From Escherichia phage Rao1: DNA of 44,051 bases. A model generated the notes under the pieces. It made no database searches. It had not been told where the DNA came from and worked only from the letters and a program-made list of their open reading frames with translations. The stretch lies in sequence record PQ221054, one strand, 5' to 3'. Below, piece after piece: positions 43,927-44,023 of this stretch. The position numbers and the translations under genes are program-made. The stretch's first letter is position 1, and each line of letters starts with the position of its first letter.

Positions 43927-44023
43927 ATTATTGCAGTTATTGCAATGATTCATCTCATTATTGCACATATAGCAATATTGCATCAGATGCAATGATTTTT
44001 TTGATTGTTGCAGAATTTGCAAT
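43927..44023. repeat. Iteron-like array of about 6-7 degenerate direct repeats ATTRTTGCA
   Basis: ATTATTGCA, ATTGCA, ATTATTGCA, ATATTGCA, ATGCAAT, ATTGTTGCA, TTTGCAAT read directly; truncated by the window edge. Confidence 0.7.

What the first reader, a model, noticed from the sequence alone, without database searches (positions are those of the whole stretch)
43927..44023. Iteron-like array of ATTRTTGCA direct repeats at the right edge of the window
Within about 100 bp there are six or seven copies of ATT(A/G)TTGCA or TTGCAAT in direct orientation, just beyond box promoter P16 and the minus-strand small-gene operon. Regularly spaced direct repeats of this kind are typical of replication-origin iterons or operator arrays. 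The array continues to the window end, so its full extent is unknown.
Basis: seen in the sequence. Interest (0 to 1): 0.5.

Follow-up and report, generated by a model that had tools for sequence, protein, structure and literature searches.

The report
Palindromic protein-binding array beside phage pac site
The repeats are real, but they are four conserved 17-bp palindromic protein-binding sites in a T1-like coliphage, lying between an early promoter and the point where DNA packaging starts, not replication iterons running off the edge; which protein binds them is unknown.

Summary
The window is a complete T1-like (Drexlerviridae) coliphage genome, and its end joins its start. The array therefore does not run off the edge; it ends at 44023.

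The repeats are best read as four 17-bp palindromes, ATTGCA-N5-TGCAAT, at 43930, 43960, 43977 and 44007. They form two copies of a 47-bp unit. All four genome-wide matches with at most one mismatch lie here (0.31 expected). In 15 relatives the half-sites are more conserved than their 5-bp spacers, and the 30/17/30 spacing is fixed.

The array sits 18 bp from a leftward early promoter. It ends 28 bp before window position 1. Three independent published PhageTerm analyses (TR1, MSK, UDF157lw) place the headful-packaging start at or near that position.

Other subfamilies carry different palindromes at the same place. All share strand-specific TGATT repeats.

Best reading (about 0.4): an operator-type array for an unidentified dimeric DNA-binding protein in the early-promoter/pac control region. 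Main rival (about 0.3): the recognition site for the small terminase subunit. Origin iterons are unlikely (about 0.1). This is a new member of a known kind and moderately interesting.

The parts
43930..43946 (.). Palindrome O1, ATTGCAgttatTGCAAT (0 mismatches to ATTGCA-N5-TGCAAT)
   Evidence: Present at the same register in 15 relatives, mostly as GTTGCA-N5-TGCAAT.
43960..43976 (.). Palindrome O2, ATTGCAcatatAGCAAT (1 mismatch)
   Evidence: It lies 30 bp from O1 in every relative.
43977..43993 (.). Palindrome O3, ATTGCAtcagaTGCAAT (0 mismatches), directly abutting O2
   Evidence: Its spacer takes eight different forms among relatives while the half-sites are kept. Its T1 equivalent, GTTGCAtggtgTGCAAC, is the first 17 bases of the T1 record.
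44007..44023 (.). Palindrome O4, GTTGCAgaattTGCAAT (1 mismatch). It is the least conserved site: the left half GTTGC is invariant, and the right half degenerates to TGAAAT or AGCAAT in many relatives.
43929..44022 (+). Two tandem copies of a 47-bp unit (43929-43975 and 43976-44022, 70% identical), each holding two palindromes 30 bp apart
   Evidence: family D1.
43946..44006 (+). Strand-specific TGATT repeats interleaved with the palindromes, at 43946-50, 43993-97 and 44002-06. A fourth copy lies at window 19-23, beyond the packaging end.
   Evidence: One search gives the positions. TGATT is the most enriched 5-mer in the 260 bp after the leftward box in five subfamilies (21 observed, 3.3 expected, P about 8e-11). 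Its reverse complement is not enriched.
43867..43911 (-). Leftward early promoter: box ATAGCACTTTTTGCTAA (43911-43895), -35 ATGACA (43895-43890), 17-nt spacer, -10 CATAAT (43872-43867). It drives the minus-strand small-gene operon that starts at 43839.
   Evidence: 10 of 12 matches. The box is one of 17 genome-wide copies (1.6 expected). The array starts 18 bp beyond the box.
1..57 (+). Packaging-series (pac) end at about window 1-9, followed by the conserved block GGACTACCATACAAGTTGATTTT(T/G)ATTCTGGC(C/T)GAGCCATT
   Evidence: The TR1 PhageTerm site 3615 maps to window 1. The MSK site 36862 maps to window 9. The UDF157lw record, re-organised by PhageTerm, starts at the homologous spot. Conservation is shown.

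Best explanation
The feature is an operator-type array: four binding sites for a dimeric, sequence-specific DNA-binding protein. Each half-site is ATTGCA, with half-site centres one helical turn apart. The array arose by tandem duplication of a 47-bp two-site unit.

It lies in the 675-bp control region between the two divergent early operons of a T1-like phage. It spans 35-128 bp upstream of the -35 hexamer of the leftward early promoter. It ends 28 bp from the point where headful packaging starts.

I think the most likely action is this. Cooperative occupancy by a still unidentified phage-encoded or host regulator builds a nucleoprotein complex. That complex modulates the leftward early promoter. 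Because the sites interleave with the family-wide TGATT repeats next to the pac cut, it also gates or assists terminase access.

Shown: the sites, their conservation pattern, their uniqueness in the genome, their position relative to the promoter and the pac end, and the replacement of the motif by other palindromes in other subfamilies.

Inferred: that a dimer binds, which protein it is, and the effect on transcription or packaging.
For: - Four dyad-symmetric 17-mers are the only matches in the genome.
- In 15 distinct relatives the half-site columns are 95% conserved (33 of 48 invariant) and the spacers 82% (4 of 20 invariant). The spacing is fixed at 30/17/30.
- The region is non-coding. 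The ORF annotated over it in TR1 loses its ATG in 4 of 15 relatives and has in-frame stops in 2.
- It is not a structured RNA: there is no Rfam match and the fold z-score is -1.7.
- In every subfamily examined, palindromes start 0-19 bp beyond the leftward box promoter, but the motif differs. T1, KLPN1 and PGN590 carry ATTCCA-N7-(T)GGAAT; TLS and F115 carry AGACCGATTGGTCT twice. The distance to the packaging end varies from 28 to 85 bp.
- Inference: a ring-shaped P22-gp3-type small terminase would be expected to read direct repeats, not inverted ones. The family-wide strand-specific TGATT repeats fit that role better.
- Phages that share the array have small terminases only 65-67% identical.
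- W, T1 and TLS have roughly equally distant small terminases (51-55% identity) but different motifs.
Against: - No cognate regulator was found.
- The only Cro-like helix-turn-helix protein I identified among the roughly 20 products scanned (window 32504-32986, minus strand; sub-threshold match to P22 Cro) varies in its recognition helix (SNQ, TPQ, TRQ, THQ) among phages with the same TTGCA half-site.
- The sites lie upstream of the core promoter, not over it. The other 16 box promoters work without them. A transcriptional role is therefore not obvious.
- A unique site 28-37 bp from a sharply mapped packaging end is exactly where a pac recognition element would be expected.
Confidence: 0.4

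Rival explanations
1. The array is the recognition part of the pac site, comparable to pacL of SPP1. In this reading the small terminase (window 3515-4039) binds the repeats on the non-packaged side. It then positions the large subunit to cut 28-37 bp to the right, and packaging proceeds rightwards.
For: - Three independent PhageTerm analyses in three genera put the packaging start at the homologous spot just right of O4. TR1 maps to window 1, MSK to window 9, and the UDF157lw record starts there.
- The T1 reference record and its annotated 2800-bp terminal repeat start exactly at the O3 equivalent.
- At least ten database records begin or end within this 200-bp stretch.
- The array is unique in the genome.
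- The linkers between the sites are also highly conserved (0.92).
Against: - The sites are palindromes, which points to a dimer rather than the nonameric ring of the closest solved homologue (P22 gp3). P22 pac is, from memory, a single asymmetric 22-bp site.
- The motif does not track the small terminase. Phages with the same array have small terminases 65-67% identical. W, T1 and TLS small terminases are roughly equally distant (51-55% identity), yet the motifs differ.
- The palindromes keep a fixed position relative to the promoter, not relative to the cut.
- The family-wide element near the cut is the TGATT direct repeat.
Confidence: 0.3
2. The array is a replication origin. The four dyad-symmetric sites would act like the four O-protein sites of ori-lambda. 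An initiator, for example the DUF3987 helicase-like protein encoded 1.4 kb to the left, would bind them and melt the nearby A+T-rich tract.
For: - There are four repeated sites.
- The same intergenic region holds an A+T-rich (TA)6/(ATT)9 tract at window 144-192.
- A DUF3987 gene lies in the adjacent leftward operon, and a broken second copy lies on the right.
- The cumulative GC skew turns here, but this also follows the direction of transcription.
Against: - The A+T-rich tract lies 120 bp or more from O4 and on the other side of the packaging end.
- That tract is flanked by its own repeats (GTTACGCGA twice, TCGCGTAAC, GACTTACAC/GTGTAAGTC). These are the better iteron candidates.
- The DUF3987 protein is 71% identical between this phage and TLS, yet TLS has entirely different palindromes.
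- The primase and main helicase genes are 11 kb away.
Confidence: 0.1
3. The sites are read by a host protein. From memory, for example, the CytR half-site is GTTGCATT and lambda CII reads TTGC repeats. The phage would then couple early transcription or packaging to host physiology.
For: - No phage protein covaries with the motif.
- Different subfamilies carry different palindromes that could match different host regulators.
Against: - The resemblance to CytR or CII sites is recalled from memory, not tested.
- The spacing differs from what I remember for either protein.
- The other subfamilies examined infect related enterobacteria (E. coli, Salmonella, Klebsiella) yet carry unrelated motifs.
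Confidence: 0.08

Closest known systems
Operator arrays of lambdoid repressor/Cro proteins (lambda OR/OL, P22 Cro operators)
   Same: Several 17-18-bp dyad-symmetric sites stand side by side next to an early promoter in a divergent control region. Half-sites are conserved, centres are variable, and specificity differs between related phages.
   Different: The sites lie upstream of the core promoter rather than over it. No adjacent regulator gene is present. The phage is strictly lytic. The array abuts the packaging start.
pac region of Bacillus phage SPP1 (pacL-pacC-pacR) and pac of phage P1
   Same: Short recognition motifs are repeated within about 100 bp of a precisely placed first cut of a headful series. 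At least part of them lies on the non-packaged side. (Knowledge of both systems is from memory.)
   Different: As I recall, the SPP1 and P1 motifs are short direct boxes or hexamers, not 17-bp palindromes. The SPP1 site lies at the small terminase gene, whereas here that gene is 3.5 kb downstream. P1-like GATC hexamers are absent here, although GATC(A) clusters occur at the equivalent place in T1, TLS, F115 and PGN590.
P22 pac site and gp3
   Same: The small terminase of this phage is a homologue of P22 gp3 (PDB 3P9A, E 4e-14).
   Different: P22 pac is (from memory) a single asymmetric 22-bp sequence inside gene 3. There is no palindrome array.
ori-lambda (four O-protein binding sites plus an A+T-rich region)
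   Same: Four repeated sites with internal dyad symmetry, and an A+T-rich tract in the same region.
   Different: The A+T-rich tract is not adjacent. The array is not inside an initiator gene. The candidate initiator does not covary with the motif.
21-nt intergenic repeat of phage TLS (aaATAGCACnnnTTGnTAAAA; PMC11447400)
   Same: This is the 'box' next to which the array sits. The genome has 17 copies.
   Different: It is a different element: a direct repeat that marks promoters. The palindrome array accompanies only one of the 17 copies.

Membership tests
Replication-origin iterons | Several copies of one motif in direct (head-to-tail) orientation | tested here: not met
   All four sites are inverted repeats. 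A direct TTGCA-N4-TTGCA reading fits only O1 and O4.
Replication-origin iterons | An adjacent A+T-rich unwinding element | tested here: inconclusive
   The (TA)6/(ATT)9 tract lies at window 144-192, at least 120 bp from O4 and beyond the packaging end. It has its own flanking repeats.
Replication-origin iterons | A cognate initiator that covaries with the repeats | tested here: not met
   The DUF3987 protein is 71% identical to that of TLS, which carries unrelated palindromes.
Replication-origin iterons | Origin activity | not testable with these tools
   Needs replication mapping.
Operator array of a dimeric DNA-binding regulator | Dyad-symmetric sites of 14-20 bp, with half-sites about one helical turn apart | tested here: met
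   ATTGCA-N5-TGCAAT occurs four times. There are 0.31 matches expected genome-wide and 0.04 locally.
Operator array of a dimeric DNA-binding regulator | Half-sites conserved and central spacer free to vary among relatives | tested here: met
   Conservation is 0.951 (33 of 48 columns invariant) for half-sites against 0.823 (4 of 20) for spacers, in 15 distinct relatives.
Operator array of a dimeric DNA-binding regulator | Placed at or over a promoter it controls | tested here: inconclusive
   The array starts 18 bp beyond the box of the leftward promoter, 35-128 bp upstream of its -35 hexamer. It does not overlap the core promoter.
Operator array of a dimeric DNA-binding regulator | An identified cognate regulator | tested here: inconclusive
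   A Cro-like helix-turn-helix protein exists. Its recognition helix varies among phages with the same half-site. Only the TLS clade differs in both helix and motif, which is a single event.
pac site of a headful-packaging phage | The first end of the packaging series maps at or next to it | tested here: met
   Published PhageTerm positions for TR1 and MSK, and the start of the PhageTerm-reorganised UDF157lw record, map to about window 1-9 in homologous coordinates. That is 28-37 bp from O4.
pac site of a headful-packaging phage | Unique in the genome | tested here: met
pac site of a headful-packaging phage | Specificity tracks the small terminase | tested here: not met
   The same array occurs with small terminases 65-67% identical, and different motifs occur with roughly equally distant small terminases.
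pac site of a headful-packaging phage | Bound by the small terminase and sufficient for packaging or transduction of a plasmid | not testable with these tools
   Needs binding and transduction assays.

The most novel reading that the evidence does not exclude
The palindrome array together with the interleaved TGATT direct repeats is the long-undefined pac site of T1-like phages, and it works as a two-component signal. A dimeric specificity protein reads subfamily-specific palindromes (TTGCA, TTCCA or AGACC types). The conserved gp3-like terminase reads the shared TGATT repeats. Packaging specificity could then be swapped between subfamilies by exchanging the palindromes.
Probability: 0.2. Interest if true: 0.6.

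Novelty: new member of a known kind. Interest (0 to 1): 0.4.

Why it matters
T1 is one of the classic coliphages and a notorious laboratory and fermentation contaminant. In the papers I could read, its pac site is not defined at the sequence level. Those papers point to ATATA repeats or a P22-like AGATTT.

Placing a conserved, unique, protein-binding array and a family-wide TGATT repeat within 30-120 bp of three independently mapped packaging ends gives concrete sequences to mutate. It also gives baits for finding the binding protein.

The result also corrects database annotation. The TR1 record labels this non-coding array as a protein-coding gene. If the array turns out to be only an upstream operator of one early promoter, it is ordinary.

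Tried and rejected
- **Coding.** The 49-codon ORF that TR1 annotates over the array is not conserved. It loses its ATG in 4 of 15 relatives and has in-frame stops in 2. The poly-isoleucine ORF at window 6-263 (minus strand) is a by-product of the ATT microsatellite.
- **Structured RNA.** No Rfam family matches; the best hit is ES003, 20 bits against a 37-bit threshold, E 0.22. The fold z-scores are -1.7 and -1.5.
- **Promoter.** No sigma-70-like promoter lies inside the array under the scan's rules. By eye only weak combinations appear.
- **Small terminase covariation.** None is detectable.
- **Cro-like regulator (32504-32986, minus strand) as binder.** Its recognition helix varies (SNQ, TPQ, TRQ, THQ, SCQ) with an unchanged TTGCA half-site. 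Only the TLS clade (NLK) switches both helix and motif, which is one event and therefore weak evidence.
- **Rha-like anti-repressor (26300-26971, minus strand) as binder.** tblastn finds no homologue in T1, which still has TTGCA sites.
- **First genes flanking the region as binders.** They differ between phages that have identical arrays.
- **Homology with Jersey-like Salmonella phages.** A pattern scan of viral contigs found an O3-O4-like module in about 40 Guernseyvirinae contigs. The similarity is not robust. The pairwise P is 0.002, it does not stand out in a scan of the SETP3 genome, and about 8 unrelated chance families hit the same pattern. I do not build on it.
- **Literature.** The T1 (Roberts 2004) and Rtp (Wietzorrek 2006) genome papers are not held. 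A full-text search for the motif words returned nothing relevant among the top-ranked hits.
- **GC skew.** It follows the direction of transcription and says nothing about an origin.

Full report
**What the window is**

A search of 42500-44051 against annotated phage records gives 99-99.7% identity to Escherichia phages TR2, TR3, CY1 and TR1 (Drexlerviridae, Braunvirinae). TR3 reads straight across the window's end into its start, with one base difference at the junction. The 44051-bp window is therefore a whole genome opened at one point.

The repeats lie in a 675-bp non-coding region (43840-44051 plus 1-462). On the left is a minus-strand operon of small genes whose first gene is 43642-43839. 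On the right is a plus-strand operon that begins at 463 and reaches the small terminase gene at 3515.

**The observation**

ATTRTTGCA occurs three times, and TTGCA/TGCAA cores seven to eight times, between 43927 and 44023. This is the densest TGCA stretch of the genome.

Read on both strands, the copies resolve into four 17-bp palindromes of the form ATTGCA-N5-TGCAAT:

| Site | Coordinates | Mismatches |
|---|---|---|
| O1 | 43930-46 | 0 |
| O2 | 43960-76 | 1 |
| O3 | 43977-93 | 0 |
| O4 | 44007-23 | 1 |

- These are the only four matches with at most one mismatch in 44 kb. The expectation is 0.31, and none of 100 shuffles reached four.
- Shuffling only the local 111 bases (73% A+T) gives 0.04 (dinucleotide) or 0.0006 (mononucleotide) such sites. 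None of 20000 shuffles reached four.
- The centres are 30, 17 and 30 bp apart, because the array is two copies of a 47-bp unit that are 70% identical.
- The array ends at 44023. The last 28 bases and the first 460 bases of the window carry no further site.

**Conservation**

The homologous intergenic region is present in 129 phage records. I placed 15 distinct relatives from several genera in register on the conserved promoter box.

| Columns | Mean conservation | Invariant columns |
|---|---|---|
| Half-sites | 0.951 | 33 of 48 |
| 5-bp spacers | 0.823 | 4 of 20 |
| Linkers between sites | 0.921 | 14 of 26 |
| 28 bp to the right of O4 | 0.72 | not counted |

O3 alone shows eight different spacers with its half-sites kept. 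That is the signature of a protein-binding dyad.

- The ORF that the TR1 record annotates over the array is not conserved, so the region is non-coding.
- There is no Rfam match, and no significant fold on either strand folded as single-stranded DNA.

**Context on the left**

A sigma-70-type promoter points leftward. Its -35 ATGACA lies at 43895-43890 and its -10 CATAAT at 43872-43867, with 10 of 12 matches. It is preceded by the box ATAGCACTTTTTGCTAA at 43911-43895.

The genome has 17 such boxes, against 1.6 expected, all but one oriented with the local transcription. This is the 21-nt repeat described for phage TLS (PMC11447400). Only this one box is accompanied by the palindromes, which begin 18 bp beyond it.

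**Context on the right**

The TR1 record labels exactly this stretch 'the initial packaging site of the headful packaging mechanism'. Its paper gives PhageTerm position 3615 (PMC10450929). In window coordinates that is position 1, so the window is opened at that end.

Two further laboratories give the same place in other genera.

- Phage MSK starts at 36862, which is window 9 when anchored on GGACTACC (PMC8421802).
- The UDF157lw record was 're-organized from the PhageTerm analysis'. It begins 31 nt after its own O4, at the homologous ...GAATGAAAGGAGGTT|TGGATC (PMC10838988).

The T1 reference record and its annotated 2800-bp terminal repeat begin exactly at the O3 equivalent, GTTGCAtggtgTGCAAC. 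Rtp, Rogue1, ESCO41, vB_EcoS_FP, CEB_EC3a, ZL19 and Sf12 also start or end within this 200-bp stretch.

The packaging series therefore starts 28-37 bp to the right of O4 and runs rightwards. The array is on the side that is not packaged at the start of the series.

**Other subfamilies**

I oriented genomes on the small terminase gene and compared what follows the leftward box.

| Phage or group | Palindromes after the box |
|---|---|
| T1 | ATTCCA-N7-TGGAAT, then two TTGCA-type sites |
| KLPN1 (Webervirus) | ATTCCA-N7-GGAAT, then scattered TTGCA half-sites |
| PGN590 (Hanrivervirus) | nested ATTCCA/GGAAT |
| TLS, F115 and other Tlsvirus | two tandem AGACCGATTGGTCT |

- The palindromes always begin 0-19 bp after the box. 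Their distance to the reported packaging end varies from 28 to 85 bp.
- An unbiased strand-specific 5-mer count over the 260 bp after the box in five subfamilies puts TGATT first (21 observed, 3.3 expected, P about 8e-11) and GATTG second. Their reverse complements are not enriched.
- In this window TGATT abuts the palindromes (TGCAATGATT) at 43946, 43993 and 44002, and recurs at 19. This explains the conserved linkers.

The region thus combines subfamily-specific palindromes with a family-wide direct repeat.

**Who binds?**

- **Small terminase.** It is a homologue of P22 gp3, a nonameric ring (PDB 3P9A, E 4e-14; Pfam GP3_package). It does not track the motif. The proteins of this phage, T1 and TLS are 51-55% identical to each other, yet the motifs differ. 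Phages with the same array have small terminases 65-67% identical, with a clearly different central segment. By inference, subunits of a ring would read direct repeats, which fits TGATT better than the palindromes.
- **Cro-like protein.** A 160-aa protein at 32504-32986 (minus strand) has a sub-threshold P22-Cro-like helix-turn-helix (Pfam E 1e-5; PDB 1RZS E 0.045). It is universal in the family. Its recognition helix varies among phages with the same TTGCA half-site. Only the TLS clade switches both helix and motif. That is weak evidence from a single event.
- **Rha-like protein.** tblastn finds no homologue in T1, which still has TTGCA sites.
- **Flanking first genes.** They differ between phages with identical arrays.

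The binder remains unknown, and a host protein is not excluded.

**Weighing the readings**

The dyad architecture, the fixed position next to the promoter box and the lack of terminase covariation favour an operator-type array for a dimeric protein. The uniqueness, the conserved linkers and the sharply mapped end 28-37 bp away favour a pac recognition role. The two are not exclusive, because occupied palindromes would cover the adjacent TGATT repeats.

My estimates are:
- about 0.4 for an operator-type regulatory array acting on the leftward promoter and/or terminase access;
- about 0.3 for direct recognition by the small terminase;
- about 0.1 for an origin;
- about 0.08 for host-factor sites.

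The origin reading is weak for three reasons. The sites are inverted. The A+T-rich (TA)6/(ATT)9 tract lies at least 120 bp away, beyond the packaging end, and has its own flanking 9-mer repeats. The DUF3987 protein does not covary with the motif.

**Comparison with known systems and novelty**

The array looks like a lambdoid operator cluster. It sits where SPP1 pacL or the P1 pac hexamers would sit. Its terminase is P22-like, but P22 pac is, from memory, a single asymmetric site inside gene 3.

I found no description of these palindromes in the papers I could read. The T1-family literature that I could read points instead to ATATA repeats or a P22-like AGATTT. The original T1 and Rtp genome papers were not available to me.

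I file it as a new member of a known kind: a protein-binding site cluster in a phage control/pac region. It is of moderate interest mainly because it makes the undefined T1-type pac region directly testable.

Noticed in passing
window 44051/1 junction: The window is a complete genome opened at the PhageTerm packaging end reported for phage TR1. The window end and start are contiguous in TR3, with one base difference.
   Followed up: yes
window 93-110, 122-130, 144-192, 366-374, 413-421: An A+T-rich core, (TA)6 plus (ATT)9, is flanked by symmetric repeats. GTTACGCGA occurs twice in tandem and is matched by TCGCGTAAC 264 bp away. GACTTACAC is matched by GTGTAAGTC 282 bp away. If this intergenic region holds an origin, this is a better candidate than the palindrome array. 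The repeats differ between close relatives.
   Followed up: partly
window 943-1466 (+) versus 40851-42434 (-): A broken second copy of the DUF3987 helicase-like gene lies on the other side of the pac region, in inverted orientation. It consists of an N-terminal fragment MFNFNDDKLTA followed by a stop, and a C-terminal ORF (1089-1466) that matches the end of the intact protein (phrog_2373, 4e-15).
   Followed up: partly
17 sites genome-wide, e.g. 1463, 13486, 28744, 43085(-), 43895(-): The box ATAGCACNNNTTGNTAA precedes promoters in the direction of transcription (17 copies against 1.6 expected). It equals the 21-nt repeat of phage TLS. From memory it resembles the MarA/SoxS/Rob 'marbox' AYNGCACNNWNNRYYAAAY. 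This resemblance was not tested.
   Followed up: partly
window 43946, 43993, 44002, 19; equivalent regions of T1 (L014/L015), TLS (L103), KLPN1 (L107): Strand-specific TGATT/GATTG repeats cluster around the packaging end in most of the subfamilies examined; PGN590 instead shows the reverse complement. They are a candidate terminase motif.
   Followed up: partly
T1 L015 1800-1815; TLS L103 49850-49895; F115 L109 and PGN590 L108 equivalents: Phages of the family that encode a Dam methylase carry clusters of GATC(A) motifs between the palindromes and the packaging end. From memory this is reminiscent of the methylation-sensitive hexamers of P1 pac. This window has no GATC between 43801 and window position 480.
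   Followed up: no
L101 3780-3830 (Salmonella phage SETP3, native 38757-38791) and about 40 IMG/VR contigs (L040-L100): Jersey-like phages carry GTTGCAtctccTGCAAY-N9-GATTGTTGCG-N5-TGAAAT between a terminator hairpin and a small gene. It looks like the O3-O4 module, but the similarity is not statistically robust and may be chance.
   Followed up: partly
window 4108-4614 (+): An HNH-type endonuclease gene sits between the small and large terminase genes. Two further HNH-like ORFs lie at about 10141-10872 and 20814-21305.
   Followed up: no
TR1 record 3595-3744 (L009 684-833) and TR3 record 34868-35125 (window 6-263, minus strand): Both annotated protein-coding genes over this region look spurious. 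The first covers the palindrome array and is not conserved. The second encodes a run of isoleucines from the ATT microsatellite.
   Followed up: yes
window 32504-32986 (-): A 160-aa protein with a P22-Cro-like helix-turn-helix lies between the primase and helicase genes. It is present in 824 phage records, and its target is unknown.
   Followed up: partly
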